A DNA stretch of 12,099 nucleotides. Origin: a virus. The position numbers and the translations under genes are program-made. Below are positions 1-12,099 of this stretch, piece after piece. Each line of letters begins with the position of its first letter. The stretch's first letter is position 1. The DNA lies in UHGV virus genome UHGV-1976345; one strand, given 5' to 3'. The notes beneath the pieces are model-generated. The model ran no database searches, was not told the origin of the DNA, and was given only the letters and a program-made list of their open reading frames with translations.

Positions 1-33
1 ACACTCTTTCCCTACACGACGCTCTTCCGATCT
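1..33. other. Illumina TruSeq adapter (technical sequence, not biological)
   Basis: Bases 1-33 read ACACTCTTTCCCTACACGACGCTCTTCCGATCT, identical to the 3' 33 nt of the TruSeq universal adapter / Read 1 primer site; genomic sequence starts at 34. Confidence 0.95.
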
Positions 34-236
34 CGCAGCTGCTCTGTCATGATTTCCACGTCTGCCAGCTCTGCCGCGAGGTCACTTTCGCTGCCCTGTC
101 CGTTCAGGTTGCGGGCAGCACTGGCCGCCAGTTCAGCGGCCTCTTCTGTCAGTTTCAGGGCCTGTGCATCCGGACCGAAACGCTGCAGGGCCAGACGGTA
201 GAGGGCGGTGCGGGTGAGTTCGGTGTTCCGTGTCAT
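12..236 (-). CDS. Hypothetical small phage protein, 3'-partial; possible all-alpha MazG-like NTP pyrophosphohydrolase fold
   Basis: ORF track 12..236 (-). ATG at 236-234 with GAGGG Shine-Dalgarno about 9 nt upstream. The last 7 residues (RDRKSVV) and the stop are encoded by adapter bases 12-33, so the true C-terminus lies off the contig. KLTEEAAELAAS and DLAAELADVEIM resemble the EExxE and ExxD helices of MazG/HisE-type domains (recollection, not searched). Confidence 0.45.
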   Translation of the reverse strand: MTRNTELTRTALYRLALQRFGPDAQALKLTEEAAELAASAARNLNGQGSESDLAAELADVEIMTEQLRDRKSVV

Positions 237-245
237 GCCGCGCCC

Positions 246-518
246 TCAGTGTTTCCGGTCGACGGTGATGTTCAGGCCGCCTTCTGCAGTGGTTTCCACC
301 CGGTACGGCACCTCGTGCTCTGCCGTGTGGGTGAGTGTGTTCATCAGTACCTGCAGGGCAGCCGCCTTTCCGTTGGTTGCCACAATGGCCTGAGCGGCCA
401 TGCTGATTAACGCCGTCAGGACGTGCTTCACATCGGTGAGGTCGCGGCATTCACACTCGTTGACATAGTGTTCAACAAGGGTTCGGGTGCGCTGTCGTGC
501 TTCCTGTGGGGTAATCAT
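246..518 (-). CDS. Hypothetical protein, 90 aa, phage early-region type
   Basis: ORF track 246..518 (-). ATG at 518-516 with GGGAGGA Shine-Dalgarno 7 nt upstream. Start overlaps the stop of the upstream zinc-ribbon ORF (ATGA) and the stop lies 9 nt from the next start, i.e. operon-style packing. No family recognised. Confidence 0.55.
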   Translation of the reverse strand: MITPQEARQRTRTLVEHYVNECECRDLTDVKHVLTALISMAAQAIVATNGKAAALQVLMNTLTHTAEHEVPYRVETTAEGGLNITVDRKH

Positions 519-709
519 TGCGCGTCCTCCCTGTCAGGGCGGGAGAATTCCATGACGGGCACGTCCGCCGAAAAATGCTGGCTGCAGTACGGACAGACCA
601 GGGTGACGCGTACCGCAGGGATGTGGTATTTACCGGACATCACGGCGATGGCGCTGTGAAAACGCAGGGCTGTTATATCCCTCTCGCACTGAATACATTT
701 AAATATCAT
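515..709 (-). CDS. Small zinc-ribbon protein, 64 aa, two CxxC motifs
   Basis: ORF track 515..709 (-). ATG at 709-707 preceded by AGAGGAG. Protein has C5-x2-C8 and C39-x2-C42 (CIQC ... CPYC). Family not recognised; Com-like and Ogr-like were considered but the spacing differs. Confidence 0.55.
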   Translation of the reverse strand: MIFKCIQCERDITALRFHSAIAVMSGKYHIPAVRVTLVCPYCSQHFSADVPVMEFSRPDREDAQ

Positions 710-806
710 AATTTAATTCTCCTCTGTTTCCGGCGTGCAGAAGCCCACGGCGCTGACGCCGGAATAAAAAAGAAAATGTTTTTATTAAATAATTAACGTG
801 GTGTGT

Positions 807-1235
807 TTACTGCACATCCTGCTCAAAAGGAATTATTGAAAAATCCTCAATGTCGCTTTTAATGGAAATACCGGGAATATTTTTCACGGCCTCTTTTTCA
901 TTCAGGATAGCGTCTTTATTTATTTCCTCTTTTACACGAATAAAGCGCTCAAGCCCCAGACGTCTCAGTAATTCAATAACATTATCCGCCCCACGGATAC
1001 TGACTGATGGCGGACGGTTTCGCCACTGCACCTCGCCGGTGGTGAGGTTAGCGAACTTCACCTTCCCGTTGCCGGTCAGTTCATCACGGTGCGCCTCACA
1101 CCATGTCTGGATACCGGACTGCAGTTCGGCCATGCGTTTTTTCAGGCTCTCGGTGACCCGGCGAAACATAAAACGGCGATCGAGGATGAGGTGGTTACCT
1201 TTGACAAATCGACAGGGCAGGCCAGACTGGCGCAT
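807..1235 (-). CDS. gam: Mu Gam-family host-nuclease inhibitor, probably 5'-truncated or with uncertain start
   Basis: C-terminal ~120 aa of minus ORF 807..1703 (WCEAHRDELTGNGKVKFANLTTGEVQWRNRPPSVSIRGADNVIELLRRLGLERFIRVKEEINKDAIL...GISIKSDIEDFSIIPFEQ) match the Mu Gam C-terminal region closely from memory. Stop TAA at 809-807. The nearest in-frame ATG is 1235-1233 with no convincing Shine-Dalgarno. Upstream of about 1250 the ORF is only the antisense shadow of the sheath gene. Confidence 0.7.
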   Translation of the reverse strand: MRQSGLPCRFVKGNHLILDRRFMFRRVTESLKKRMAELQSGIQTWCEAHRDELTGNGKVKFANLTTGEVQWRNRPPSVSIRGADNVIELLRRLGLERFIRVKEEINKDAILNEKEAVKNIPGISIKSDIEDFSIIPFEQDVQ

Positions 1236-1250
1236 CCGGTTGTCGCTAAT

Positions 1251-2327
1251 GTGGTGGTGAAAAACAGTGAAGGCAGCACCACCCACACGGCGAACACGGA
1301 CTACCGTGTTGATGCGCAGGCGGGTGTGCTCACGAACCTGGGCAAGGCTATTGAGGCCGGTGGCAGCGTGAAGGTGAGCTATGAGTACGCGGACCCGTCG
1401 AAGGTGACTGCGGCGGACATCATCGGCGGGGTGAACAGCGCCGGAAACCGAACCGGCATGAAGCTGCTTAACGACAGCTTCAACCTGTACGGCTATTTCG
1501 CCAAAATTCTGATTGCGCCGGTGTTCTGCACCCAGAAGAGTGTCGCAGTTGAGCTTATCGCCATGGCAGAGAAGCTGGGCGCGGTAACCTACATTGATGC
1601 GCCTGTCGGTACCACCTTTGCACAGGCTCTGGCAGGTCGTGGCCCGGAAGGCACCATCAACTTCAATACCAGCTCCGACCGCGTCCGTCTGTGCTATCCG
1701 CATGTGAAGGTATATGACCCGGTGACAAACACAGAGCGTCTGGAGCCGCTCAGCCAGCGTGCAGCAGGTCTGCGTGCCAGAGTCGATCTGGACAAGGGCT
1801 ACTGGTGGTCATCCTCCAATCAGGAGATTCTGGGGATCACCGGCGTGGAGCGCCAGCTGTCCGCGATGATTGATGACCCGCAGAGTGAGGTAAACCTGCT
1901 TAACGAACAGGGGATCACCACGGTATTCAGCAGTTACGGCAGCGGCCTTCGTCTGTGGGGTAACCGGACGGCAGCATGGCCAACGGTCACCCATATGCGT
2001 AACTTTGAGAACGTTCGCCGCACCGGTGATGTGATCAACGAGTCCATTCGTTATTTCAGCCAGCAGTACATCGACATGCCGATTACTCAGGCGCTGATTG
2101 ATGCACTGACGGAGTCGGTCAACGCCTACGGTCGCAAAATGACTGGTGATGGTGCGGTACTGGGCTTCCGTTGCTGGTTTGATCCGGCCCGCAATCCGGA
2201 GACGGAGCTGGCCGCCGGGCACCTGTTGCTGAGCTACAAATATACGCCACCACCGCCGCTGGAGCGACTGACGTTTGAGACTGAGATCACCTCGGAATAC
2301 CTGTTAACCCTGAAAGGGGGCAACTGA
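1251..2327 (+). CDS. Contractile tail sheath protein (P2 FI / Mu L family), 5'-truncated, start undefined
   Basis: Plus ORF 1089..2327. Sheath-like motifs run from about 1290 to the stop at 2325-2327 (VKVSYEYADPSKVTAADIIGG, LRLWGNRTAAW, CWFDPARNPETELAAGHLLLSYKYTPPPPLERLTFE). The conserved N-terminal ~100 aa of sheath proteins is absent, there is no in-frame ATG or RBS near the homology start, and 1089-1250 is antisense to gam. Confidence 0.85.
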   Translation: MVVKNSEGSTTHTANTDYRVDAQAGVLTNLGKAIEAGGSVKVSYEYADPSKVTAADIIGGVNSAGNRTGMKLLNDSFNLYGYFAKILIAPVFCTQKSVAVELIAMAEKLGAVTYIDAPVGTTFAQALAGRGPEGTINFNTSSDRVRLCYPHVKVYDPVTNTERLEPLSQRAAGLRARVDLDKGYWWSSSNQEILGITGVERQLSAMIDDPQSEVNLLNEQGITTVFSSYGSGLRLWGNRTAAWPTVTHMRNFENVRRTGDVINESIRYFSQQYIDMPITQALIDALTESVNAYGRKMTGDGAVLGFRCWFDPARNPETELAAGHLLLSYKYTPPPPLERLTFETEITSEYLLTLKGGN

Positions 2328-2848
2328 TGTCAAAGATTGAGATAAACCGCATCACGAATGCCAACATCTATCTGGATGGTACTAACCTGCTGGGACGGGC
2401 TGAGGAAGTTAAACTCCCCGATGTCTCCATGATTATGCAGGAACACAAGGCGCTGGGGATGGTGGGTAAGGTGGAACTCCCGGCTGGTTTTGACAAACTG
2501 GAAGGCGAAATCAAATGGAACAGCTTTTACCGCGATGCGATGCTGTCTGCCGCGAACCCGTACAGGTCGCTGGCACTGCAGTGTCGTTCCAGCGTCCAGC
2601 GCTACAGCTCGCAGGGGCTGATTGACGAAATCCCGCTGGTCACCTTCCTGACGATTATGTTCAAGAAGAACCCGCTGGGGACGTTCAAACAGCACGAGAA
2701 CGCCGAGTTCTCCAGTAGCTTCACCTGCACGTATATCAGACAGGTACTGGATGGTGAAGAGCTGCTGCAACTGGACTATCTGGCCAACATCTTCCGGGTC
2801 GGCGGTGTTGATCAACTGACTGACTACCGTATCAATATCGGGGGCTGA
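2327..2848 (+). CDS. Tail tube protein (P2 FII family)
   Basis: ORF 2327..2848, 173 aa. ATG overlaps the sheath stop (TGATG) with AAGGGGG upstream. C-terminal FTCTYIRQVLDGEELLQLDYLANIFRVGGVDQLTDYRINIGG resembles the conserved P2 FII-type tube C-terminus (recollection). Confidence 0.9.
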   Translation: MSKIEINRITNANIYLDGTNLLGRAEEVKLPDVSMIMQEHKALGMVGKVELPAGFDKLEGEIKWNSFYRDAMLSAANPYRSLALQCRSSVQRYSSQGLIDEIPLVTFLTIMFKKNPLGTFKQHENAEFSSSFTCTYIRQVLDGEELLQLDYLANIFRVGGVDQLTDYRINIGG

Positions 2849-2850
2849 CG

Positions 2851-3132
2851 ATGAGTGTTGAACTGACGGATAAAGGAAGACGATGTGCGGCACTGGGCAT
2901 GTCAAATGGTACGTGGTTTACCCTCCTTGATATTCCGGGGGTGGAAACCCTTTTTAATACCCGTAAAACCAATGACCCGATTGACTGCACACGTTCAAAG
3001 GCCCGCAAACTGGCGGATTTGATTGAAGCATGGGAGCCTCCCGACCACTGGTTCTCCGGCACCGGCAAATCTGAGGGAAAGACGCTTCTCATCGCTTTCC
3101 TGCGTAACTGCAAGGGGTTTCGCACTTGCTGA
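2851..3132 (+). CDS. Hypothetical 93-aa protein between tube and chaperone genes (possible moron)
   Basis: ORF 2851..3132. ATG sits 2 nt after the tube stop with GGGGG Shine-Dalgarno 7 nt upstream, and is followed by a hairpin terminator. No family recognised. Uses several rare codons (AGA, CGA, GGA, CTT), so coding status is not certain. Confidence 0.45.
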   Translation: MSVELTDKGRRCAALGMSNGTWFTLLDIPGVETLFNTRKTNDPIDCTRSKARKLADLIEAWEPPDHWFSGTGKSEGKTLLIAFLRNCKGFRTC

Positions 3133-3138
3133 CATCAC

Positions 3139-3165
3139 AGGGGCTCCGGCCCCTTCTTCTTAATC
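3139..3165 (+). terminator. Putative intrinsic terminator or attenuator
   Basis: Perfect 6-bp GC-rich stem AGGGGC (3139-3144) / GCCCCT (3149-3154) with 4-nt loop TCCG, followed by T-rich TCTTCTTAATCTCCTTT, 7 nt after the ORF93 stop. Confidence 0.45.
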
Positions 3166-3229
3166 TCCTTTAATATCCGTCACGCGCTTCTCCCGACATA
3201 CTGCCCTGAACTTACACAGGAGCACAATC

Positions 3230-3565
3230 ATGTCACAGACCCCATCCGATACTTTTAAATTGTCTTATCCCTTCACCACTGCTGCAGGCACCAGAATTGA
3301 GCAGGTTGAACTGAAACGCCTGACGGTAAAAGACCTGAAGCAGGTGCGCAAAATCAGCAAAAACCCGGCAGACTGGGACGAACCGCTGATTGCCCGCAGT
3401 ACTGGTCTTCTCCCGGAAGATCTCGACAATATGGATCTGGCTGATTACCTGCAGTTACAGAAACGATTTCAGCTCATCACGGGGATGGGTGAGAGCAACC
3501 AGGGCGCTGACGCAGGCGCAGGGGCTGCTGGCGAGATGGTTCCGGTTTCAGCCGGGGGAGATTGA
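3230..3565 (+). CDS. Tail assembly chaperone, gpE-like (P2 E / lambda G analogue)
   Basis: ORF 3230..3565, 111 aa. AGGAG 7 nt upstream of the ATG. Lies immediately upstream of the tape measure gene and has a Gly/Ala-rich C-terminus, as in E/G-type chaperones; an overlapping out-of-frame extension ORF is present. Confidence 0.8.
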   Translation: MSQTPSDTFKLSYPFTTAAGTRIEQVELKRLTVKDLKQVRKISKNPADWDEPLIARSTGLLPEDLDNMDLADYLQLQKRFQLITGMGESNQGADAGAGAAGEMVPVSAGGD

Positions 3566-3647
3566 TGCCCTCGATACTGACGATCTGGAGATGTGGCTGG
3601 AGCAGGCTGAAGAGCAAATAAAAAGCGAGTACGGCGACAAATCATAG
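3230..3647 (+). CDS. Putative frameshift product E+E' (tail assembly chaperone, long form)
   Basis: ORF 3390..3647 (codon starts at positions divisible by 3) overlaps the 3' end of E (codon starts at positions with remainder 2). Its last 30 codons encode an acidic, protein-like peptide (GEIDALDTDDLEMWLEQAEEQIKSEYGDKS) ending 75 nt before the tape measure start. A GGGGG run at 3554-3558, two codons before the E stop, is the candidate slip site. Offset is +1 or -2, not -1. Confidence 0.5.
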
Positions 3648-3652
3648 TACAG

Positions 3653-3673
3653 ACAGCCGCCAGTAGCGGCTGT
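3653..3673 (+). promoter_or_regulatory. Stem-loop between E' stop and tape measure start
   Basis: ACAGCCGC (3653-3660) / GCGGCTGT (3666-3673), 8-bp stem with 5-nt loop, followed by a moderately T-rich tract (TCTGCGTTATCCCC). The tape measure RBS GGAGG follows at about 3709. Confidence 0.3.
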
Positions 3674-3722
3674 TCTGCGTTATCCCCTCACGTCTTTTCA
3701 CCTTCCCCGGAGGTTAACCACT

Positions 3723-6674
3723 ATGTCGGGACAGTTTTCAGTCGGCGTTGTTATCGGCGGGATGATTGGCAGCACATTCCGTTCTGCAATGAGCGGTACC
3801 CGCCGTGCGCTTGATTCCCTGAGCGATACCTCACGCCGCCTGCAGGAACGTCAGAACGCTTTAACCCGTGCAACAGAACGTTATGGTCAACTGGGTTCTT
3901 CCCGGATGCAGCATCTCAACAGCGAGCTGCTGCGGGTAAGCCGCACCATGGAGCAAATTGAGCGCCAGCAGCGCCGTCTGTCAGCGGCATCCGCTACCAG
4001 TGATGCGCTGAAAGCTAACCGCATGGCGCTGTATGGTCAGGGGATTGAAGCGTATGGCATGGCACAGACTGTTTATCATACGGTTTCCCCTGCCGTTCAG
4101 CAGTCCATGTCTTTTCAGGACAAAATGATTGATATGTCGATCACCGCAAAATATGACAATAAAACGCGGGATGGACTTGCCGGACAGATAAAAGGCTGGG
4201 CGCTTAAATACAATCAGTATCAGGATGAGCTGCAGGAGGCGGTGGGTTCACTCATCAGCGACAATATTGATAATGTGTCAGATATCGGTTTTCTGATGCC
4301 GGATATTGCCCGCGCGGCAACGGCAACACGCACGTCTGCTCAGGACTGGGCAAAAGTGGCCGCAGTCTGGCAAAACTCCCTGAAAGGTGCGGCCAGAGAT
4401 TTTGGTGCCGTTCAGAATATTATGGCTTATGCCGGTGACCAGGGGTCATTTGAAATCCCGGATCAGGTCAAGTGGATGCAGTCCCTGGCCCCAATGATGG
4501 CGGGTATTGCCAGTGGAAAAGAGGCTGTTGCTGAAATCGGGGCCAGTCTCCAGATAGCAAAAATCGGTGCAGGTTCCACCGACGAAGCAGCCAATAATTT
4601 TAAAAACTTTCTTACCAAAATTTTTGCCCGCGATACTCAGAAACAGTTTGCTGATCTGGGTATTGATTTGCAGGGATCTATTGCGAGTTATAAAGCTGCG
4701 GGGATCTCTCCGATTGAAGGGATGTTGAGTGTTATAGAACGTTACCTCAATGCCAAAAGCCCCGAAGCGCTGGCCGGCTTCAAATCAGCCATGAAAATAA
4801 AGAATGATACGGCAAGAGATGAGGCACTTCAGGCTCTGGCGAAAAACTTTGGTCTGGGCGATATGTTCGCGGATATGCAGGTCATGGCATTTATCCGCCC
4901 GATGCTGGCCAACATGGACAGATATCGAGAGATCCGTGCCGGTGCTCTCAGGGCTGCGGATAACGATTTGCTTGCCAGTGCTTATGATCAGCGGCTGAAA
5001 TCTCCCCTTGAAGCCACTAAAACACTTATGGTCAGCAGTCGCGATCTGGCAATTACGCTGGGCGATCAATTAGCTCCATCTTTTATTTCTTTGACTCAGG
5101 AACTGCTTCCACTCATTCAGGGGGCAAAACACTGGGTAGCGACTCACCCGCAATTTGTCAGTGGGGCTTTTAAGCTCATCAGTGCGCTCCTTGCGATTAA
5201 GATAGCGACTGTTGGTCTCAAACTGGGGCTGAATCTCCTTATTTCCCCCTTTGTAAGTGTCTGGAAAAATGCTGTTTTACTTCGGGCCAACTGGCTTCGT
5301 CTGTCGCTCGCACTGGGGCAAGGCGGTAAGCTCCGCTGGCTGGTGACCGGATTTAGCGCCGTCGCCAGAGGAGCCAGAACACTGAGTGGCGTGCTCTCCG
5401 GGGGGCTGGTTCGCGGAATTATGCTCGCCGGACGTGCTGTTCTCTGGATTGGAGGTGCGCTGATGATGAATCCCATCGGTCTCGTTATCACCGCTGTCGC
5501 GGCAGCAGCTTACCTTATCTACCGCAACTGGGGGGCAGTCAGTGGCTGGTTTAAACAGCGCTGGGCAGACATTCAGGAAGCCTTTAACGGCGGCATTGTG
5601 GGAACTGGTAAGTTGCTGATTAACTGGTCGCCGGCAGGCCTGCTCTATAAAGCCTTTGCGGCTGCGCTGAAATATTTCGGCGTTGCTCTGCCGGCAAAGT
5701 TCACCGACTTCGGTGGCCATCTTATCGACGGTCTGATTAACGGTATCAAAAACAAATGGGGGTCGCTCAAATCCAGTGTAACCGGAATGGGTGACAGCAT
5801 CAGTAGCTGGTTTAAACAGTGCTGGGCTGACATTCAGGAAGCCTTTAACGGCGGTATCGCGGGAACTGGTAAGCTGCTGATTAACTGGTCGCCGGCAGGT
5901 CTGCTCTATAAAGCCTTTGCAGCTGCGCTGAAATATCTTGGTGTTGATCTGCCGGCAAAGTTTACCGACTTCGGTGGCCATCTTGTCGATGGTCTGATTA
6001 ACGGTATCAAAAACAAATGGGAGTCGCTCAAATCCAGTGTAACCGGAATGGGTGACAGCATCAGTGGCTGGTTCAGCGAAAAGCTGGGCATTCATTCGCC
6101 GAGCCGCGTGTTTATGGGCTTTGGTGACAATATCGCGCAGGGGGCCGCCATTGGCCTGCAGCGGACCACTCCGCTTGCAGCTCTGGCCGGGCAGCGAATG
6201 GCCAGTGAACTGCTCCCCAGAATGCCCGTGAGCATCCAGGGGCCAGAAATACGGGATAACACTTCAGGTGTTCGCTTCAGTATGCCGTTGCCCGATATCA
6301 ATGGGTTTATGTCGTCTGCTAAAAATGCGATCGGAGCCGTAATCAATAGTTTGTCTTCCATGCCCGCTATTCCGCTCTCCACCCGGGCATCGATTTTACC
6401 AGGGCAACGTCTGGCAAATGAGATGACACCGGATGTTCCCCGTATCCCCTCGCCTGAAATCCTGGCTGCCGGATATTCAGGCCGTGGTGCAGCTGCAACC
6501 GGCGGTGGAACGTCTGGTGGTATCCAGGTCAGCTTTAATCCTCAGTTTTTCCTCAATGGCAGGGAAACCACAGCGCCTGCAGGACTGACTGGTGCCCTGA
6601 ATATGAGTCTGCATGAGCTGGAAAAAATGCTGGAGCGTCTGCTGGCTCAGAAACAACGTAAGGAGTACCGCTGA
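3723..6674 (+). CDS. Tail tape measure protein (P2 T family)
   Basis: ORF 3723..6674, 983 aa. Position after the E/E' pair, Ala/Gln-rich helical N-terminal region, long hydrophobic Gly/Ala/Leu-rich central segment (about residues 480-600) and an internal tandem repeat are all typical of tape measure proteins. GGAGG 9 nt upstream of the ATG. Confidence 0.9.
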   Translation: MSGQFSVGVVIGGMIGSTFRSAMSGTRRALDSLSDTSRRLQERQNALTRATERYGQLGSSRMQHLNSELLRVSRTMEQIERQQRRLSAASATSDALKANRMALYGQGIEAYGMAQTVYHTVSPAVQQSMSFQDKMIDMSITAKYDNKTRDGLAGQIKGWALKYNQYQDELQEAVGSLISDNIDNVSDIGFLMPDIARAATATRTSAQDWAKVAAVWQNSLKGAARDFGAVQNIMAYAGDQGSFEIPDQVKWMQSLAPMMAGIASGKEAVAEIGASLQIAKIGAGSTDEAANNFKNFLTKIFARDTQKQFADLGIDLQGSIASYKAAGISPIEGMLSVIERYLNAKSPEALAGFKSAMKIKNDTARDEALQALAKNFGLGDMFADMQVMAFIRPMLANMDRYREIRAGALRAADNDLLASAYDQRLKSPLEATKTLMVSSRDLAITLGDQLAPSFISLTQELLPLIQGAKHWVATHPQFVSGAFKLISALLAIKIATVGLKLGLNLLISPFVSVWKNAVLLRANWLRLSLALGQGGKLRWLVTGFSAVARGARTLSGVLSGGLVRGIMLAGRAVLWIGGALMMNPIGLVITAVAAAAYLIYRNWGAVSGWFKQRWADIQEAFNGGIVGTGKLLINWSPAGLLYKAFAAALKYFGVALPAKFTDFGGHLIDGLINGIKNKWGSLKSSVTGMGDSISSWFKQCWADIQEAFNGGIAGTGKLLINWSPAGLLYKAFAAALKYLGVDLPAKFTDFGGHLVDGLINGIKNKWESLKSSVTGMGDSISGWFSEKLGIHSPSRVFMGFGDNIAQGAAIGLQRTTPLAALAGQRMASELLPRMPVSIQGPEIRDNTSGVRFSMPLPDINGFMSSAKNAIGAVINSLSSMPAIPLSTRASILPGQRLANEMTPDVPRIPSPEILAAGYSGRGAAATGGGTSGGIQVSFNPQFFLNGRETTAPAGLTGALNMSLHELEKMLERLLAQKQRKEYR
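5547..6068 (+). repeat. In-frame tandem duplication (2 x 261 bp) inside the tape measure gene
   Basis: Copy 1 at 5547-5807 and copy 2 at 5808-6068 both begin TGGTTTAAACAG; about 17 mismatches over 261 bp (roughly 93% identity by hand count). Encodes two 87-aa units, WFKQ(R/C)WADIQEAFNGGI...GMGDSIS(S/G). A third unit starts at 6069 (TGGTTCAGCG) then diverges. Confidence 0.9.
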
Positions 6675-7558
6675 TGTTTGCCGTACTGGGTGATATTGAG
6701 TTTGAGCTGATTACCTACTGGGACGGCTTCGAGGCCACGTTCGGCGTCGATTATGCGGAGCATGCCCGCATCGGGGGTAAGCCTGGCCTGCAGTTCGTCG
6801 GCGACAGGCTGGACGAAATCCAGATAACTCTGGTTTTCCATCAGCATTATTGTGTACCCGATGTGGAGCTGGCGAGACTGCGAACAGCCATGAAAGCCCA
6901 TCAGGCACTGGCGCTGGTCTTCGGCAACGGTGACTATCGCGGCTGGTTCGTGATTACCGATGTGACTGCAACCAGCGAGCAGACTGACAGTACCGGCAAC
7001 GTGCTGGCTGTCAGTGCCACCGTGTCTCTCCGGGAATACACCGGTGACCCGAAAAATCCTCTGCAACCACCGGCAATACGCACGAAGCTCCCGGGTGTCG
7101 GGGCGGTCTCCGGTGCCATACCTTCACCTTCAGGGGTGGCGCAGTTCATCCGCAACGGCGTCAACTATGCGAAACAGGCGCAGTCTGTACTCCAGACCAC
7201 TATCAGCGCCGTTCGGGTGACACAGAAAATGAAGGATAACCCCGTTGTCGCACTGACCCGTGTGCCGGGGCTGATGAGCGGACTGGGTAATATCTCCGGG
7301 GCTCTGGGGAAAAGTGTTCCGGCGTTTAACGCACTCTCTGAATCCATGCCCGATGCCATCAGTCTGGCCAGAACAGCCAGCGAAGCAGCCACGTATGTAC
7401 AGCAGGCACAGTCTGCGCTGAGTGGTGTGGACAAAAGAAATATTGCAGGTGCTCTGGATACCGTTTCCGGGCAGCTTAACGCCGCCGGCACAGCATTCAA
7501 CCGCATGTCTCCGGGATTAAGTGCAATGGCCGCCAGAATACTGACGAGGAGTGTGTGA
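6674..7558 (+). CDS. gpU-family tail protein with about 150-aa C-terminal extension
   Basis: ORF 6674..7558, 294 aa. ATG overlaps the tape measure stop (TGATG) with AAGGAG upstream. The N-terminal ~130 aa fit the P2 gpU pattern (LGxIEFE...IGGKPGLQFVGDRLDEIQITLVF...GWFVITDV). The remainder is Ala/Ser/Gly/Gln-rich and unassigned. Confidence 0.75.
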   Translation: MFAVLGDIEFELITYWDGFEATFGVDYAEHARIGGKPGLQFVGDRLDEIQITLVFHQHYCVPDVELARLRTAMKAHQALALVFGNGDYRGWFVITDVTATSEQTDSTGNVLAVSATVSLREYTGDPKNPLQPPAIRTKLPGVGAVSGAIPSPSGVAQFIRNGVNYAKQAQSVLQTTISAVRVTQKMKDNPVVALTRVPGLMSGLGNISGALGKSVPAFNALSESMPDAISLARTASEAATYVQQAQSALSGVDKRNIAGALDTVSGQLNAAGTAFNRMSPGLSAMAARILTRSV

Positions 7559-7770
7559 TGTTTCTTGAACATGTTACCCGTGACGGAGAGCGCTGGGATT
7601 CGCTGGCATGGCAGTACTACGGTGACCCGCTGGGCTATCCCCGGATTATTGCCGCCAATCCGCACGTGGCCATCACGCCGGTGCTGCCCTCCGGGCTGTT
7701 GTTACTGATCCCGGTGATTGAGGCTGAAGAAGCCCGTACAGAAGAGGATATTGCCCCATGGCTGAGATAA
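7558..7770 (+). CDS. Tail protein X (LysM-like, P2 gpX family)
   Basis: ORF track 7555..7770 (GTG at 7555; ATG at 7558 is the more likely start and overlaps the U stop). MFLEHVTRDGERWDSLAWQYYGDPLGYPRIIAANPHV fits the gpX LysM-like pattern. GAGGAG upstream. Confidence 0.85.
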   Translation: MFLEHVTRDGERWDSLAWQYYGDPLGYPRIIAANPHVAITPVLPSGLLLLIPVIEAEEARTEEDIAPWLR

Positions 7771-8912
7771 ACAGCACTGCGCAAGTCACATCAGCGTTAA
7801 CCGGCGTCAGCGATGTGCTGACACCGGTGTTCACTTTGTGGTATCTGCAGAAAAACATCACCTCTGATATCGCGCCTTATGTCACCCGTGTGACCTGGAG
7901 CGATAACATCAAAAATGAGTCCGATACCATTGAGGTGGAGCTGGACGACACCGATGGCCGCTGGCTGGATAAATGGTATCCGGGCAAGGGTGACACGCTG
8001 ACGCTGAAAATGGGCTATCAGGGCGAGAAGCTGCTGTCCTGCGGTACGTTCTCTATAGACGAGATCGAAGTGAGTTCGCCCGCTTCCGTTGTTTCTATCC
8101 GTGGGGTGGCCACCTCGGTTAACAGTGCCCTGCGGACTAAAACCAGTCGTGGTTTTGAGAACACCACGCTGGCAGCTGTTGCGGGGCGGATTGCCAGAAA
8201 GCACCGACTGAAACTGGTGGGCAGCATTGAGTCCATCAGAATCGACCGGGTGACCCAGTATGCTGAAACCGACGTGGGTTTTCTGCGCCGGCTGGCCAGC
8301 GAGTATGGTTATGCAGTGAAAGTGGTCAGTGACCAGCTGATTTTTTCTCATCTGGCCACACTGCGCAGTCAGGAGCCGGTCAGGCAGTTAAAACCGCAGG
8401 ATGTGGCCCGCTTTTCCCTGCGTGACACCATCAACCGGGTCTATAAATCTGCAAAGGTAAAACACCAGAAAAGCAGCAGTAAAAAACTGATCGTCTACGA
8501 AGCTGATGGTGGTACCCGTGAAAGCGACAAAAAGCTCAAAGGTGGTAAGGTTACCAGCGCTGACTCACTTAAAGTTAACAGCCGCGTCAGCGACCCGGAC
8601 AGTGCCCGGATTAAAGCGGATTCAGCACTGGCCAGACATAACGAATACCAGCAGAACGGCTCCCTGACGCTGACGGGAACACCTCAACTGACAGCAGGCA
8701 ACAAAATTGAACTGGTGGGTTTTGGGCAGTTATCCGGGCCATGGCTCATAACCACTGCCCGCCATGCGTTTGACCGTAACAGCGGCTACACCACAGAGCT
8801 GGAAGTGGCACGGGGGCCAGTCACAAGAGGGAAAAAACAAAAAACTCAGAAACTCACGGTTTATCACCCGGATGGCAGTACATCGACGGTGATTAAGGAG
8901 AAGAAAAAATGA
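7758..8912 (+). CDS. Baseplate hub / late control protein D (P2 gpD family)
   Basis: ORF 7758..8912, 384 aa, similar in size to P2 gpD. Start overlaps the X 3' end by 13 nt with GAGGA 11 nt upstream. Has gpD-like motifs (FSIDEIEV, YAETDVGFLRRLASEYGYAVKV) and sits after X and before V. Confidence 0.9.
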   Translation: MAEINSTAQVTSALTGVSDVLTPVFTLWYLQKNITSDIAPYVTRVTWSDNIKNESDTIEVELDDTDGRWLDKWYPGKGDTLTLKMGYQGEKLLSCGTFSIDEIEVSSPASVVSIRGVATSVNSALRTKTSRGFENTTLAAVAGRIARKHRLKLVGSIESIRIDRVTQYAETDVGFLRRLASEYGYAVKVVSDQLIFSHLATLRSQEPVRQLKPQDVARFSLRDTINRVYKSAKVKHQKSSSKKLIVYEADGGTRESDKKLKGGKVTSADSLKVNSRVSDPDSARIKADSALARHNEYQQNGSLTLTGTPQLTAGNKIELVGFGQLSGPWLITTARHAFDRNSGYTTELEVARGPVTRGKKQKTQKLTVYHPDGSTSTVIKEKKK

Positions 8913-9505
8913 CTGGTGTCACTCGTCAGGTCGGTACGGTCAGTGCCGTTGATGCCGACAGGGTTCAGGCCCGCGTTCGTCTGCCTGAATGCGATAACCT
9001 GCGCACAAACTGGCTTAACGTGCTGCAGCGCAATACCCAGGATAACAAAGATTACTGGCTCCCTGACGTGGGGGAGCAGGTTGAGGTGCTGCTCGATGCC
9101 AACGGCGAGGATGGTGTTATTCTGGGCGCGGTGTATTCAGACGTCGATAAACCACCGTTCAGTGACAAAAATATCCGGGGAACCCGGTTTGCTGATGGTG
9201 CAGAGTACAGCTACAACCGGAAGACGCACACTCTGACCATCCGGGGCGGCATTGAGCATATTGTCATTGAGTGTGGTGCTGATGTGGTATTGAAAACACA
9301 GAAAGCCACGATTGACGCACCGGAAACCGAACTTACCGGAGATCTGCGTGTCAGGGGTAAGCTGATTTACGAAGGAGGCATGGCGGGTTCTGGTGGTGAA
9401 GGTGTTACCGCGACCATCCATGGCAATATCGAGATTAAAGGGAATGCCCATGCCACGGGCAGTATGTTGTCTGATGGCGAAAACTCCAGCCACCACTCCC
9501 ACTGA
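8909..9505 (+). CDS. Baseplate central spike protein (P2 gpV family)
   Basis: ORF 8909..9505, 198 aa. ATGA overlap with D and AAGGAGA upstream. WLPDVGEQVEVLL and a C-terminal Gly-rich beta-helix-like region ending in the His-rich SSHHSH match the gpV pattern. Confidence 0.9.
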   Translation: MTGVTRQVGTVSAVDADRVQARVRLPECDNLRTNWLNVLQRNTQDNKDYWLPDVGEQVEVLLDANGEDGVILGAVYSDVDKPPFSDKNIRGTRFADGAEYSYNRKTHTLTIRGGIEHIVIECGADVVLKTQKATIDAPETELTGDLRVRGKLIYEGGMAGSGGEGVTATIHGNIEIKGNAHATGSMLSDGENSSHHSH

Positions 9506-9541
9506 GCTTTTTAAACGCCTTTAATATCAGCGTTCCCGCAC

Positions 9542-9559
9542 GGGGGCAATACTGCCCCC
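9542..9559 (+). promoter_or_regulatory. GC-rich stem-loop directly abutting the gpW start codon
   Basis: GGGGGCA (9542-9548) / TGCCCCC (9553-9559), 7-bp stem with ATAC loop; the W ATG begins at 9560. No T-tract follows, so it is not called a terminator. Confidence 0.35.
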
Positions 9560-9907
9560 ATGAAAACAACCTCAGTATTCTGGCAACCGACCCTGCAGGC
9601 TCCCGGCGAAATTGTCCGGGGGCTGGATGATATCCGGCAGGCGATTCAAATTATCCTGCGGACTCCCCGCGGCAGCGACCCGCATCGCCCGGAGTTCGGC
9701 AGCAATCTGCATCTTTATATCGACTGGCCTGTAGACCGGGCCATTCCGCATGTGGTGCGCGAATCCGTCGATGCCATCCGGCGCTGGGAGCCCCGCTGCC
9801 AGCTTATGTCAGTTAAACCCGCCGTCGACGGCGAACATCTTACGCTCCGGGTGAGCTGGAAAGGCTCAGACGGACAGACCCGGACTCAGGAGCTGCTATG
9901 GCGCTGA
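9560..9907 (+). CDS. Baseplate wedge protein (P2 gpW / T4 gp25-like)
   Basis: ORF 9560..9907, 115 aa. IRQAIQIILRTPRGSDPHRPEFGSNL and RRWEPRCQL match the GPW/gp25 pattern (ILxTPxGS ... WEPR). Confidence 0.85.
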   Translation: MKTTSVFWQPTLQAPGEIVRGLDDIRQAIQIILRTPRGSDPHRPEFGSNLHLYIDWPVDRAIPHVVRESVDAIRRWEPRCQLMSVKPAVDGEHLTLRVSWKGSDGQTRTQELLWR

Positions 9908-11001
9908 CAGAACCCGATTTTATTGAACGCGATGCCGACAAAATCACGGCAGAAATGATTGCGAAGTATGAAGCGGATACCGGCAAAACGCTGTACCCGG
10001 CACAGGCAGAACGTCTGCTGATTGATCTGTGGGCCTATCGCGAAATGCTGGTCAGGGTTGCGGTACAGGAGGCAGCAAAGCAGAATCTGGTCGCCTTTGC
10101 CCGTGAGCCGATGATTGATTACCTCGGTGAACTGGTCGGTGTATACCGTCTTGCCGCGCAGCCTGCCACTACCACGCTCCAGTTCTCCGTAGATGAGGCA
10201 CTGGCCATTGATGTGCTGATCCCGGCAGGCACCCGCGTCAGCGCTTCCGACAGCGTTATTTTTGCCACCGATACAGATGTGGTACTGAAGGCCGGATTGC
10301 TGCTGGTCAATGTCACGTCCACCTGTACCGAACCCGGTACCGCTGGTAACGGCTGGCAACCTGCGCAGGTCAGTCAGTTACTCGATGAGATTGATAACGT
10401 CGACCTGCTGGTGAGCAATCTGACGGCCAGTTCCGGCGGTTCAGAACAGGAAGACGATGACAGGCTCCGGGAGCGTATCAGGCTGGCCCCGGAGTCATTC
10501 ACCAATGCCGGAAGCCGTGGCGCATACCGCTTTCATGCCATGCAGGCCCATCCCAACATTGTCGATGTTGCTGTGCTTTCCCCGGTTCCCGGGACCGTAG
10601 ATCTGTATCCGCTGCTCAGTACCGGTCTGCCGGACGGCGGTGTTCTCACGCTGGTAGAGAGTTTCTGCTCTGATGAGAAAGTCAGGCCACTCACTGATAC
10701 AGTGCGGGCTAAAACACCAGTGAAGGTGGATTACACCATTGAAGCCAAGATTACGATCTATCGTGATCAGGATGCCAGGTCTGTAAAAGATGCCGCTAAC
10801 AGCGCCATACAGAACTGGGTGGCATCACGTGCCGCCACGCTGGGGCGCGATATTGTCCCCAGCCAGATTATCAGTGCATTGTCCGTTTCCGGGGTGTACC
10901 AGGTTGAACTGGTGACACCGGCACTGCGGGTGGTGGCAGAAAACGAATGGGCAAACTGTACGGCAATCACTCTTAACATGACTGGAGTGTCTGATGACTG
11001 A
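9898..11001 (+). CDS. Baseplate protein J (P2 gpJ / T4 gp6-like)
   Basis: ORF 9898..11001, 367 aa. Overlaps the W stop by 10 nt with AGGAG upstream. SFTNAGSRGAYRFHAMQAHPNIVDVAV and LGRDIVPSQIISALSVSGVYQVEL match conserved gpJ regions. Confidence 0.9.
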   Translation: MALTEPDFIERDADKITAEMIAKYEADTGKTLYPAQAERLLIDLWAYREMLVRVAVQEAAKQNLVAFAREPMIDYLGELVGVYRLAAQPATTTLQFSVDEALAIDVLIPAGTRVSASDSVIFATDTDVVLKAGLLLVNVTSTCTEPGTAGNGWQPAQVSQLLDEIDNVDLLVSNLTASSGGSEQEDDDRLRERIRLAPESFTNAGSRGAYRFHAMQAHPNIVDVAVLSPVPGTVDLYPLLSTGLPDGGVLTLVESFCSDEKVRPLTDTVRAKTPVKVDYTIEAKITIYRDQDARSVKDAANSAIQNWVASRAATLGRDIVPSQIISALSVSGVYQVELVTPALRVVAENEWANCTAITLNMTGVSDD

Positions 11002-11572
11002 GCCATTACAACTCCCGCCACCGCTTGAGGGTGATATCAGTCTCAGGACGCTGGGAAGACTGGCAGGACGGCTGGATAACATCGACCTGAGCGTACTGAT
11101 GGTCTTTCTCGTCGATATCGTCGACAGTTCCGCGCTGCCATGGCTGGGCGAGCAGTTCTCACTGTCTGGCGATGGCTGGGAGCTGGCGGAATCGGACGAT
11201 GTTCGCCGCATGCTTATAAAAGCAGCCATCGAACTGCACCGGTATAAAGGGACGCCGTGGTCAATCCGGGAAGTTATCCGCCGTTTTGGCTTTGGTGAAG
11301 TGGATCTGATTGAAGGCACAGGTCGTCTCAGTTACGACGGCAATCGCAGCTATAACGGACTGTTTGTTCATGGAGATGCAGCCGCCTGGGCAGTTTATCG
11401 CGTTATTCTGAAACAGCCCATTACTAACGATCAGGCCGCGATGCTGCGTCAGACGCTGGCTGCATTTGCACCGGCCCGCTGCCATCTGGCCAGCCTGGAG
11501 TATCAGTCTGTGGCCATTCGCTATAACAATACCGCCATCCATGATGGCAGTTATAACCACGGGAGCAGTTGA
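10994..11572 (+). CDS. Baseplate / tail protein I (P2 gpI family)
   Basis: ORF 10994..11572, 192 aa. Overlaps the J stop by 8 nt with GGAG upstream. ALPWLGEQFSL ... HRYKGTPWSIREVIRRFG fits the gpI pattern (LPWLA ... H.KGT). Confidence 0.85.
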   Translation: MTEPLQLPPPLEGDISLRTLGRLAGRLDNIDLSVLMVFLVDIVDSSALPWLGEQFSLSGDGWELAESDDVRRMLIKAAIELHRYKGTPWSIREVIRRFGFGEVDLIEGTGRLSYDGNRSYNGLFVHGDAAAWAVYRVILKQPITNDQAAMLRQTLAAFAPARCHLASLEYQSVAIRYNNTAIHDGSYNHGSS

Positions 11573-11574
11573 TT

Positions 11575-12099
11575 ATGGGAAACCTGAATGAAACAGAAAA
11601 GTGGGAAGAAAATATCTATCAACTGGAGACATCAGATCCGGTTCTGGGTGGTGCAGACGGGATATCAAATCGAGCCCCCCGGCAACTGGCAAACAGGACG
11701 AAATGGCTGAAGAAAAAAACGGAGGAAGCCGCACAGTCACTGGCTGAACACGTACGTTCCCGTAACCACCCGGACGCGACACTGACAGCTAAGGGGTTCA
11801 CCCAACTGAGCAGTGCCACCAACAGCACCTCTGAAACGCTGGCCGCCACACCAAAGGCCGTCAAGGCTGCATATGACCTGGCTGCCGGCAAGGCCCCCGT
11901 CAGCCATACTCACCCGTGGAGTCAGATAACGGGAGTGCCTGCTGCCTCGCTGACGGCAAAAGGCACCGTACAACTGAGCAGCGCCACGGACAGTCAATCA
12001 GAAACTGAGGCTGCCACGCCGAAGGCGGTCAAGGCTGTATACGACCTTGCAGCCGGCAAGGCGCCCGTCAGCCACACTCACCCGTGGAGTCAGATAACG
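11575..12099 (+). CDS. Tail fiber protein (P2 gpH-like), 5' portion only; runs off the window end
   Basis: ATG at 11575, 2 nt after the I stop, with GGGAG upstream; frame is open to 12099 and not in the ORF track because no stop is reached. Contains HPDATLTAKGFTQLSSATNSTSETLAATPKAVKAAYDLA, the conserved fiber collar repeat seen in P2 H and lambda-type side tail fibers. Confidence 0.85.
   Translation, partial: MGNLNETEKWEENIYQLETSDPVLGGADGISNRAPRQLANRTKWLKKKTEEAAQSLAEHVRSRNHPDATLTAKGFTQLSSATNSTSETLAATPKAVKAAYDLAAGKAPVSHTHPWSQITGVPAASLTAKGTVQLSSATDSQSETEAATPKAVKAVYDLAAGKAPVSHTHPWSQIT
11782..12099 (+). repeat. Tandem tail-fiber repeat (2 units of about 150 nt, 168-nt period)
   Basis: Unit 1 at 11782-11931 and unit 2 at 11950-12099, both ending GCCGGCAAGGC(C/G)CCCGTCAGCCA(T/C)ACTCACCCGTGGAGTCAGATAACG. 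The 5' halves differ at many synonymous sites; the 3' ~45 nt are nearly identical. The window ends exactly at the end of unit 2. Confidence 0.85.

What the first reader, a model, noticed from the sequence alone, without database searches (positions are those of the whole stretch)
7064..7558. gpU-family protein carries a ~150-aa low-complexity C-terminal extension
P2 gpU is about 160 aa; this protein is 294 aa. The N-terminal ~130 aa fit the gpU pattern, followed by an Ala/Ser/Gly/Gln-rich, probably helical region with no recognised family. Mu-type tail modules have a longer protein in the equivalent position, so this may mark the module as Mu-like rather than P2-like in this region, or be an added interaction domain.
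Basis: inference. Interest (0 to 1): 0.35.

Follow-up and report, generated by a model that had tools for sequence, protein, structure and literature searches.

The report
Long gpU tail-tube initiator protein
This is the normal, full-length form of a phage tail protein that starts the tail tube on the baseplate, and its extra C-terminal half is a conserved helical domain of a kind already seen in related phage tails, so the finding is real but ordinary.

Summary
The ORF 6674-7558 (+) encodes 294 aa. Residues 6-123 match Pfam Phage_P2_GpU. Residues about 124-294 have no Pfam match.

'Low-complexity' is not correct. The tail is Ala/Ser/Gly/Val-biased but has no low-entropy window. It keeps invariant residues from Enterobacteria to Burkholderia and is under purifying selection (dN/dS about 0.12).

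It is neither a frameshift nor a gene fusion. PHROG 788 covers the whole length, and BcepMu gp45 (296 aa) and E. coli phage PhiKM (99.7% identical) are full-length relatives. The window is the tail module of a BcepMu-like prophage: tape measure, U, X, D, V, W, J, I.

AlphaFold predicts a Pro-rich linker followed by a four-helix bundle (residues 155-290). gpU is the tube initiator of P2. In Mu gp43, Milano gp25 and pyocin R2 'ripcord' PA0626, the tube-initiator domain carries a helical domain that locks the baseplate wedges.

I infer the same role here, with the LysM 'glue' piece encoded separately as gpX. I found no sequence homology to those helical domains, and the pyocin protein has the opposite domain order.

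Verdict: a new member of a known kind, low interest.

The parts
6674..7558 (+). Complete gene for the long gpU / tube-initiator protein (294 aa, stop TGA at 7556-7558)
   Evidence: ORF list. PHROG 788 full-length match, E 5.6e-134. 99.7% identical to PhiKM 'tail protein U' and 46.5% identical over 100% of its length to BcepMu gp45.
6689..7042 (+). N-terminal gpU (tube-like) domain, residues 6-123
   Evidence: Pfam PF06995, E 7.4e-39. hhalign to P2 gpU residues 5-121, E 3.9e-6. Foldseek hits to tube-initiator chains of Mu, 7-7-1, Milano, pyocin R2, AFP and PVC.
7043..7135 (+). Pro-rich linker, residues 124-154, with the conserved motif GDPKNPLxPPA followed by a variable segment predicted to be disordered
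   Evidence: Invariant G124, D125 and P140, and near-invariant P129, L130, P133 and A134. pLDDT below 50 for residues 131-152. dN/dS 0.05-0.08.
7136..7543 (+). C-terminal helical domain, residues 155-290, predicted to be an up-down four-helix bundle
   Evidence: AF2 full model and domain-only model (pLDDT 78.8, pTM 0.67). Generic four-helix-bundle matches, TM 0.57-0.64. dN/dS 0.14-0.15. In public proteins it is found only attached to gpU domains.
7551..7560 (+). U/X junction: a GTGTGTG run, then the U stop TGA overlapping the ATG of gpX (TGATG)
   Evidence: Sequence. The rare 364-aa U-X fusion ORFs read ...TRSV-MFLEH, which is what loss of one TG unit would give.
7555..7770 (+). gpX, the small protein that serves as the 'glue' of the baseplate in P2 and pyocin R2. 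In Mu and Milano the equivalent LysM piece is the C-terminal part of the tube-initiator protein
   Evidence: Pfam Phage_tail_X, E 3.7e-18. PHROG 46. Literature.
7758..8912 (+). gpD baseplate hub, on which the gpU hexamer sits
   Evidence: Pfam Phage_GPD. PHROG 52. P2 structure paper.
3723..6674 (+). Tape measure protein. Its stop overlaps the start of U
   Evidence: Pfam PhageMin_Tail. Annotation in PhiKM and BcepMu.
9560..11572 (+). Wedge genes gpW, gpJ and gpI, the likely partners of the helical domain (inferred)
   Evidence: Pfam GPW_gp25 for 9560-9907. J and I assigned by position and by PhiKM/BcepMu annotation. The contact itself is inferred from the Mu, Milano and pyocin structures.

Best explanation
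The gene encodes the tube initiator (baseplate centrepiece) of a BcepMu-like contractile tail.

Six copies of the N-terminal gpU domain would form a tube-like ring on the trimeric gpD hub and seed polymerisation of the tail tube.

A flexible Pro-rich linker leads to a helical bundle of about 140 aa. I infer that this bundle reaches outward and packs between neighbouring baseplate wedges (gpW, gpJ, gpI), next to the separately encoded glue protein gpX. There it would hold the baseplate in its pre-contraction state and leave with the tube when the tail fires.

Shown here: the ORF is real; both domains are conserved; the extension is helical; the gene order is tape measure, U, X, D; the whole-protein fold resembles tube initiators that carry helical domains.

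Inferred by analogy only: the wedge contact and the locking or release role.
For: - The domain is real and conserved: PHROG 788 full-length match, invariant residues in the C-terminal half across Enterobacterales, Burkholderia, Ralstonia and Chromobacterium, dN/dS 0.12-0.13 with 59 of 84 differences at third codon positions.
- A profile of the C-terminal half, scored against 1.84 billion representative proteins, finds 104 clusters. The non-fragment gpU-type hits are about 275-350 aa with the domain after residue ~124, apart from two with the helical module duplicated. The remaining hits are short fragments or long repeat proteins.
- The same gene order, tape measure, long U, X, D, is found in PhiKM, KP12, BcepMu, Pseudomonas phage Komp_PAO1_1 and a Salmonella prophage remnant.
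- AF2 predicts a linker plus four long helices.
- Foldseek with the full model ranks Mu gp43 (E 2e-4), phage 7-7-1 and Milano gp25 first, with alignments of 316-368 columns that span both domains, followed by the pyocin R2 baseplate chain.
- Literature: P2 gpU is the hexameric tube initiator on the hub, and its short C-terminal helix touches the wedge triplex. The helix-rich domain of Mu gp43 embeds between wedges. The Milano and pyocin helical bundles join the wedges and are extruded on contraction.
Against: - No sequence homology to any solved helical domain was found. hhalign against Mu gp43 finds nothing.
- Against the pyocin ripcord helical region the score is 23.9, no better than the 25.4 obtained with the reversed sequence.
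- The domain-only model matches only generic and designed four-helix bundles, not the Mu, Milano or pyocin helical domains.
- Those domains have eight helices in about 200 aa, against four predicted helices in 140 aa here.
- The N-terminal half of the full model has low confidence (pLDDT 27-46 over residues 1-50), so the full-length fold matches have low TM-scores (0.2-0.27).
- Conserved prolines lie inside predicted helices (P198, P216, P280), so the real fold may differ.
- Pseudomonas phage Bise has a 52%-identical gpU domain and no helical module, so the module is dispensable in a related tail.
Confidence: 0.6

Rival explanations
1. The helical domain belongs to a pilot protein that is ejected into the cell. 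As reported for Mu gp43 (N), the tube initiator would enter the host with the DNA, and the C-terminal domain would bind and protect, or non-covalently circularise, the ends of the infecting transposable-phage DNA.
For: The window is from a BcepMu-like transposable phage. Mu gp43 is both the tube initiator and the DNA-circularisation protein. The C-terminal half is basic here, with pI 10.7 and net charge +9, whereas the gpU domain is acidic with pI 4.6.
Against: The basic charge is not conserved: about a third of the family members examined have an acidic or neutral C-terminal half. The DNA-free pyocin R2 also carries a helical domain on its gpU domain, so such a domain does not need DNA as a ligand. 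There is no similarity to Mu gp43 or to any DNA-binding family.
Confidence: 0.1
2. The extension is an artefact. A frameshift, a lost stop codon or a fusion of gpU with a separate small downstream gene produced an over-long ORF.
For: Pfam covers only the first 123 residues. A few database entries start inside the ORF or are truncated, for example P0084 (202 aa), annotated as 'methyl-accepting chemotaxis protein'.
Against: Relatives down to 45% identity in several bacterial orders share the same single ORF of 292-310 aa, with no stop at the domain boundary. PHROG 788 spans the whole length. dN/dS is 0.12 in this frame. The C-terminal part is never found as a free-standing complete gene; the short hits are contig fragments.
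Confidence: 0.02
3. The helical domain acts during assembly or membrane penetration and is not a wedge lock. For example, it could bind the C-terminus of the tape measure protein, or insert into the host membrane after firing.
For: The helices are Ala/Gly/Ser-rich and amphipathic in character. The tube initiator stays on the tube tip after contraction in P2 tomograms. The profile gives weak hits to Mce/MlaD-type and chemoreceptor helical bundles.
Against: Those hits also include designed coiled coils and TPR proteins, so they reflect helical bias. No hydrophobic transmembrane-like segment is present (GRAVY 0.12). Six copies of a 140-aa bundle cannot fit in the tube lumen (inference).
Confidence: 0.15

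Closest known systems
BcepMu gp45 / PHROG 788 'tail protein' (Bcepmuvirus long gpU), including E. coli phage PhiKM 'tail protein U'
   Same: Same length (294-297 aa), the same two-domain layout, the same position between the tape measure gene and gpX. Identity is 99.7% (PhiKM) and 46.5% (BcepMu) over the full length.
   Different: Nothing of substance. This family is what the window protein is. In the papers searched, neither the C-terminal domain nor a BcepMu-type baseplate has been structurally described.
P2 gpU (tube initiator, 159 aa; Pfam PF06995)
   Same: Homologous gpU domain (hhalign E 3.9e-6, residues 7-122 against 5-121). Gene lies directly after the tape measure gene.
   Different: P2 gpU has only about 35 residues after the domain, including one helix that contacts the wedge triplex in three of six copies. 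Here there are about 170 residues with four predicted helices. In P2, U is followed directly by D and X is not between them; here the order is U, X, D.
Pyocin R2 'ripcord' PA0626 (PDB 6U5B)
   Same: About 290 aa, with one gpU domain and one Ala/Gln/Ser/Arg-rich helical region of about 125 aa joined by a Pro-rich linker. Identical gene order: tape measure, ripcord, glue, hub.
   Different: The domain order is reversed. The gpU domain is at residues 158-284 and the helical region is at the N-terminus. The helical regions show no homology beyond helical bias.
Mu gp43 (N, DNA circularisation protein) and Milano gp25 (baseplate centrepiece)
   Same: N-terminal tube-like domain, flexible linker, then a helical domain, at the same gene position. 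They are the best Foldseek matches of the full model, with collinear alignments over both domains.
   Different: They are 495 aa (Mu gp43) and about 396 aa (Milano gp25), with eight helices and a fused LysM module. There is no sequence similarity, and Mu gp43 belongs to Pfam DNA_circ_N, not GpU. Here the LysM-type piece is the separate gene gpX.

Membership tests
Pfam PF06995 Phage_P2_GpU (tube initiator of P2-type contractile tails) | Profile match above the curated gathering score | tested here: met
   132.5 bits against a cut-off of 27.5, residues 6-123, profile positions 1-119 of 120.
Pfam PF06995 Phage_P2_GpU (tube initiator of P2-type contractile tails) | Gene lies between the tape measure gene and the hub (gpD) gene of a contractile-tail module | tested here: met
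   Tape measure 3723-6674, U 6674-7558, X 7555-7770, D 7758-8912.
Pfam PF06995 Phage_P2_GpU (tube initiator of P2-type contractile tails) | Tube-like beta-barrel fold that forms a hexamer on the hub | tested here: inconclusive
   The best Foldseek hits are tube-initiator chains (E 2e-4 to 5e-3), but the N-terminal model has low pLDDT and TM-scores are low. The oligomeric state cannot be tested with these tools.
PHROG 788 / BcepMu gp45-type long gpU | Full-length match that includes the C-terminal half | tested here: met
   E 5.6e-134 over residues 1-293 of a 297-position profile. The C-terminal 164 aa alone give E 1.9e-47.
PHROG 788 / BcepMu gp45-type long gpU | Conserved linker motif and C-terminal residues | tested here: met
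   GDPKNPLxPPA motif, P190, A193, L211, L249, R292 and the ...TR-x-x C-terminus are conserved in 25 relatives.
Pyocin R2 ripcord (PA0626) type | One gpU domain plus one helical region of 125-140 aa in a protein of about 290 aa, encoded between the tape measure and glue (gpX-like) genes | tested here: met
Pyocin R2 ripcord (PA0626) type | Domain order: helical region N-terminal, gpU domain C-terminal | tested here: not met
   The ripcord has GpU at residues 158-284 and the window protein has it at 6-123.
Pyocin R2 ripcord (PA0626) type | Sequence homology of the helical region | tested here: not met
   hhalign score 23.9 (E 0.003, probability 10%), against 25.4 for the reversed-sequence control.
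Pyocin R2 ripcord (PA0626) type | The helical domain joins neighbouring wedges and is released on triggering | not testable with these tools
   Needs a baseplate structure or genetics. Known for the pyocin only from the literature.
Mu gp43 / Milano gp25 baseplate centrepiece | N-terminal tube domain followed by a helical domain | tested here: met
   Domain order from Pfam and AF2. Collinear Foldseek alignments of 316-368 columns to 9ki1, 9rku and 8fqc.
Mu gp43 / Milano gp25 baseplate centrepiece | LysM module fused at the C-terminus | tested here: not met
   The protein ends at residue 294. Phage_tail_X is the separate next gene. Only rare 364-aa fused ORFs exist in databases.
Mu gp43 / Milano gp25 baseplate centrepiece | Sequence membership (Pfam DNA_circ_N for Mu gp43) | tested here: not met
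   The window protein gets no DNA_circ_N hit, and hhalign to Mu gp43 finds nothing.
Mu gp43 / Milano gp25 baseplate centrepiece | DNA circularisation or end-protection activity | not testable with these tools
   Biochemical property. The charge of the C-terminal half is not conserved in the family.

The most novel reading that the evidence does not exclude
In BcepMu-like transposable phages the helical C-terminal domain of the tube initiator might do more than lock the baseplate. It could be the functional counterpart of Mu N, entering the cell on the tube tip and binding or protecting the ends of the infecting linear DNA. If so, the DNA-end-protection function would have arisen on an unrelated helical module attached to a P2-type gpU domain.

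A weaker version: the helical wedge-locking module has been attached independently to either end of the gpU domain, at the C-terminus in BcepMu-type phages and at the N-terminus in the pyocin ripcord. The reversed domain order is shown here; common origin of the two helical modules is not.
Probability: 0.08. Interest if true: 0.5.

Novelty: new member of a known kind. Interest (0 to 1): 0.2.

Why it matters
It matters little beyond annotation. The result gives a reasoned role to a protein that databases call 'phage tail protein', 'tail protein U' or, wrongly, 'methyl-accepting chemotaxis protein'. Sequence similar to this window is present in 684 of 5,426 complete E. coli genomes, and 457 of them carry at least 80% of it.

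It adds a four-helix variant to the series of tube-initiator extensions: one helix in P2, four here, eight plus LysM in Mu and Milano.

It also documents that the pyocin ripcord carries its helical region at the opposite end of the gpU domain. That could be useful to people engineering tailocins or comparing baseplate triggering mechanisms. No open question becomes newly testable.

Tried and rejected
1. Frameshift or fused-ORF artefact. Rejected: conserved single ORF, PHROG full-length match, dN/dS 0.12.

2. Low-complexity or disordered tail. Rejected: no low-entropy window, conserved columns, confident helices.

3. Chemoreceptor (MCP) relationship, as annotated for KP12 and S. Typhi entries. 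Rejected: PDB profile hits to MCP chains (E about 1e-3) sit among designed coiled coils, SNARE designs and TPR proteins, so they reflect helical bias.

4. Homology of the helical domain to the pyocin ripcord helical region. hhalign gives E 0.003 over a collinear stretch of about 100 aligned columns, but the reversed-sequence control scores as high. Not supported.

5. Homology to Mu gp43. None by hhalign.

6. A specific structural neighbour for the domain-only model in the PDB and BFVD. Only generic four-helix bundles were found.

7. Occurrence of the C-terminal domain in other architectures. The long multi-stretch hits (P0151, P0195, P0219 and others) are Ser/Gly repeat, TPR or coiled-coil proteins, not relatives.

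8. A conserved basic charge as a hint of DNA binding. Not conserved in the family.

9. The original pyocin R2 paper (PMC7513463) is not held, so the ripcord description rests on the PDB chain sequence, the Pseudomonas locus and secondary papers.

10. One family member (P0095) carries a precomputed Pfam label, PF27724, that is absent from the Pfam copy available, so I could not identify it.

Full report
**What is in the window.** The window carries a contractile-tail module on the + strand:

| Coordinates | Gene | Evidence |
|---|---|---|
| ORF from 1089, ends 2327 | sheath, 5'-truncated | annotation of close relatives |
| 2327-2848 | tube | Pfam Phage_tube |
| 2851-3132 | small ORF | DUF7739, below cut-off |
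| 3230-3565 | tail chaperone E | Pfam Phage_TAC_7 |
| 3723-6674 | tape measure | Pfam PhageMin_Tail |
| 6674-7558 | the finding's ORF | Pfam GpU, PHROG 788 |
| 7555-7770 | gpX | Pfam Phage_tail_X |
| 7758-8912 | gpD hub | Pfam Phage_GPD |
| 8909-9505 | gpV spike | Pfam Phage_base_V |
| 9560-9907 | gpW | Pfam GPW_gp25 |
| 9898-11001 | gpJ | position and annotation |
| 10994-11572 | gpI | position and annotation |

The closest phage is E. coli phage PhiKM (genus Bcepmuvirus). Its 'tail protein U' is 99.7% identical to the ORF of interest. BcepMu gp45 (296 aa) is 46.5% identical over the full length. Sequence similar to this window occurs in 684 of 5,426 complete E. coli genomes, and 457 of them carry at least 80% of it.

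**Checking the observation.**
- ORF 6674-7558 encodes 294 aa.
- Pfam Phage_P2_GpU covers residues 6-123 only, at 132.5 bits. P2 gpU is 159 aa and aligns to residues 5-121.
- The finding's start, 7064, is codon 131.
- Residues 124-294 have no Pfam or NCBIfam match.

The length and 'extra C-terminal half' claims therefore hold.

'Low-complexity' does not hold. Composition is A 15%, S 11%, G 9%, V 9%. Entropy is 3.82 bits against 4.04 for the N-domain, and no 12-residue window is SEG-like low.

The region aligns almost gap-free in 25 relatives from Enterobacterales, Burkholderia, Ralstonia and Chromobacterium. There is a conserved linker motif (GDPKNPLxPPA), and P140, P190, A193, L211, L249 and R292 are invariant.

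**Is it an artefact?** No.
- PHROG 788 matches residues 1-293 of a 297-position profile (E 5.6e-134). The last 164 residues alone score 1.9e-47.
- Homologues of 292-310 aa with the same architecture are numerous.
- Searching with the C-terminal half alone returns only gpU-type proteins or contig fragments.
- Against Klebsiella phage KP12 and phage Phi06_2974 B (89% amino-acid identity), the C-terminal half has dN/dS 0.12-0.13, and 56-59 of 82-84 differences fall at third codon positions.

**How wide is the domain's distribution?** A profile of the C-terminal half was scored against 1.84 billion representative proteins. It finds 104 clusters at E <= 1e-3 and 47 at E <= 1e-10. The non-fragment gpU-type hits are about 275-350 aa and carry the domain after residue ~124.

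Two representatives (P0133, 462 aa; P0141, 451 aa) carry the helical module twice. The long multi-stretch hits are Ser/Gly repeat, TPR or coiled-coil proteins, which is compositional noise. The module is thus specific to gpU-type proteins.

It is also dispensable in some. Pseudomonas phage Bise has a gpU domain 52% identical to this one, but a 204-aa protein with a short Pro/Thr-rich tail and no helical module.

**Structure.** AlphaFold2 on the family alignment gives mean pLDDT 64. The N-terminal 50 residues are poor, the linker 131-152 is disordered, and four long helices (155-184, 190-221, 228-249, 257-290) have pLDDT 70-93.

The domain modelled alone gives pLDDT 78.8, pTM 0.67 and the same four helices. 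Foldseek with the domain alone finds only generic or designed four-helix bundles, with TM up to 0.64.

Foldseek with the whole model puts baseplate tube-initiator chains first:
- Mu gp43 (9ki1, E 2e-4).
- Phage 7-7-1 (9rku).
- Milano gp25 (8fqc). These first three alignments run 316-368 columns and span both domains.
- phiCD508, pyocin R2 (6u5b) and the Anabaena, PVC and AFP initiators follow.

TM-scores are low (0.2-0.27), so this supports architecture, not a detailed fold match.

**What such extensions do in solved tails (literature).**
- In P2, six gpU copies form the tube initiator on the gpD hub trimer. [quoted passage not shown]
- The same paper states that pyocin R2 uses a 'ripcord' domain of its tube initiator to stabilise the pre-contraction state, and that its gene order is tape measure, ripcord, glue, hub.
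- In Mu, gp43 has a tube-like domain and an eight-helix domain containing LysM. The helical domain is embedded between wedge helical bundles. gp43 is also the DNA-circularisation protein (PMC11915804).
- In Milano, gp25 has tube (1-127), helical (141-345) and LysM (346-396) domains. The pyocin helical bundle is described as the true wedge-joining element, extruded on contraction (PMC10811340).

**Direct comparison with the pyocin ripcord.** A broader family profile (A4) hits PDB chain 6u5b_h, 'Ripcord PA0626' (290 aa), at E 1.7e-5. The gpU part of the profile aligns to PA0626 residues 166-286, which is its C-terminus.

I fetched a Pseudomonas R-pyocin locus (L005). Its gene order is tube, E, tape measure, a 289-aa ripcord homologue, X, D. 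Pfam places GpU at residues 158-284 of that protein. Its first ~120 residues are an Ala/Gln/Ser/Arg-rich sequence that looks helical, followed by a Pro-rich linker.

The pyocin protein and the window protein therefore have the same two kinds of module and the same size and gene context, but the opposite domain order. hhalign aligns the two helical regions collinearly over about 100 columns (score 23.9, E 0.003). The reversed-sequence control scores 25.4, so this is helical bias and not evidence of homology. Mu gp43 shows no sequence relation at all.

**Best explanation.** The protein is the tube initiator, or baseplate centrepiece, of a BcepMu-type tail. Its N-terminal gpU ring sits on the hub. 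A flexible linker leads to a helical bundle that most likely packs between the wedges beside gpX, stabilising the extended baseplate and leaving with the tube on firing.

The reality, conservation, helicity and context of the domain are shown. The contact and the locking role are inferred from the Mu, Milano, pyocin and P2 structures. Confidence is about 0.6.

In effect, U plus X here equals the single Mu or Milano protein split in two. Rare database ORFs of 364 aa fuse U and X.

**Rivals.**
- A Mu N-like DNA-end-binding role is attractive, because this is a transposable-phage relative and the C-terminal half is basic here (pI 10.7). However, the charge is acidic or neutral in about a third of the family, and the DNA-free pyocin also carries a helical domain on its gpU domain.
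- A membrane or tape-measure-binding role cannot be excluded, but it rests only on bias-driven weak hits.
- The artefact explanation is refuted.

**Novelty and interest.** The protein belongs to a known, catalogued phage family, and the kind of protein, a tube initiator with a helical accessory domain, is already described structurally. No BcepMu-type baseplate structure turned up in the papers searched, so the precise fold and contacts of this four-helix variant are undescribed.

This is a new member of a known kind, with interest about 0.2.

Noticed in passing
window 1-1156 and 1089-2327: Window 34-1156 carries minus-strand early genes: a MazG-like NTP pyrophosphohydrolase, two small ORFs and Gam. 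Window 1155-12099 carries the tail genes. Both stretches are 100% identical to one E. coli genome (HSP60, NZ_CM137001.1), but there they lie about 20.6 kb apart. None of 5,426 complete genomes carries the junction. The sheath gene is 5'-truncated (412-aa ORF against 475 aa in PhiKM). The source is therefore either a prophage with a ~20.6 kb internal deletion or a mis-join.
   Followed up: partly
window 5539-6073: The tape measure gene contains a 261-bp tandem duplication (2.0 copies, 93% match), which encodes two 87-aa repeats (WFKQ.WADIQEAFNGGI...GDSIS). Several of the best E. coli matches align in two pieces rather than one.
   Followed up: partly
window 7551-7560: The U stop overlaps the gpX start (TGATG) and is preceded by a GTGTGTG run. 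Rare database ORFs of 364 aa (P0001, P0003, P0004 from Salmonella Agona) read ...TRSV-MFLEH, as expected from loss of one TG unit. This fuses U to X and recreates the Mu/Milano tube-helical-LysM architecture. They could be real variants or sequencing errors.
   Followed up: partly
L005 4506-5375 (Pseudomonas R-pyocin locus) and PDB 6u5b_h: The pyocin ripcord has its gpU domain at the C-terminus (Pfam residues 158-284) and its helical region at the N-terminus. One paper (PMC10811340) describes the helical bundle as fused to the C-terminus of the tube domain, which does not fit the sequence coordinates.
   Followed up: yes
proteins P0133 (462 aa) and P0141 (451 aa), relatives found: Some family members carry two tandem copies of the C-terminal helical module after one gpU domain, which shows that the module behaves as a duplicable unit.
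   Followed up: no
L009 1501-2385 (Klebsiella phage KP12) and protein P0084 (Salmonella Typhi): Orthologues of this protein are annotated as 'methyl-accepting chemotaxis protein'. This is a mis-annotation caused by the Ala/Ser/Gln-rich helical bias. The PDB profile search also gives weak chemoreceptor hits, among designed coiled coils.
   Followed up: yes
window 3230-3565 and 3390-3647: The tail chaperone gene (Phage_TAC_7) is overlapped by an 85-aa ORF in another frame just upstream of the tape measure gene. This is the usual layout for a programmed frameshift product (E/E' of P2, gp42/gp43 of BcepMu). The slippery site was not examined.
   Followed up: no
L011 6001-6954 (Salmonella prophage remnant, STM4210 region): A 317-aa long-gpU homologue (39% identical) sits in a Salmonella tail-gene cluster. 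There, gtrA-like and glycosyltransferase genes are inserted between the V and W baseplate genes.
   Followed up: no
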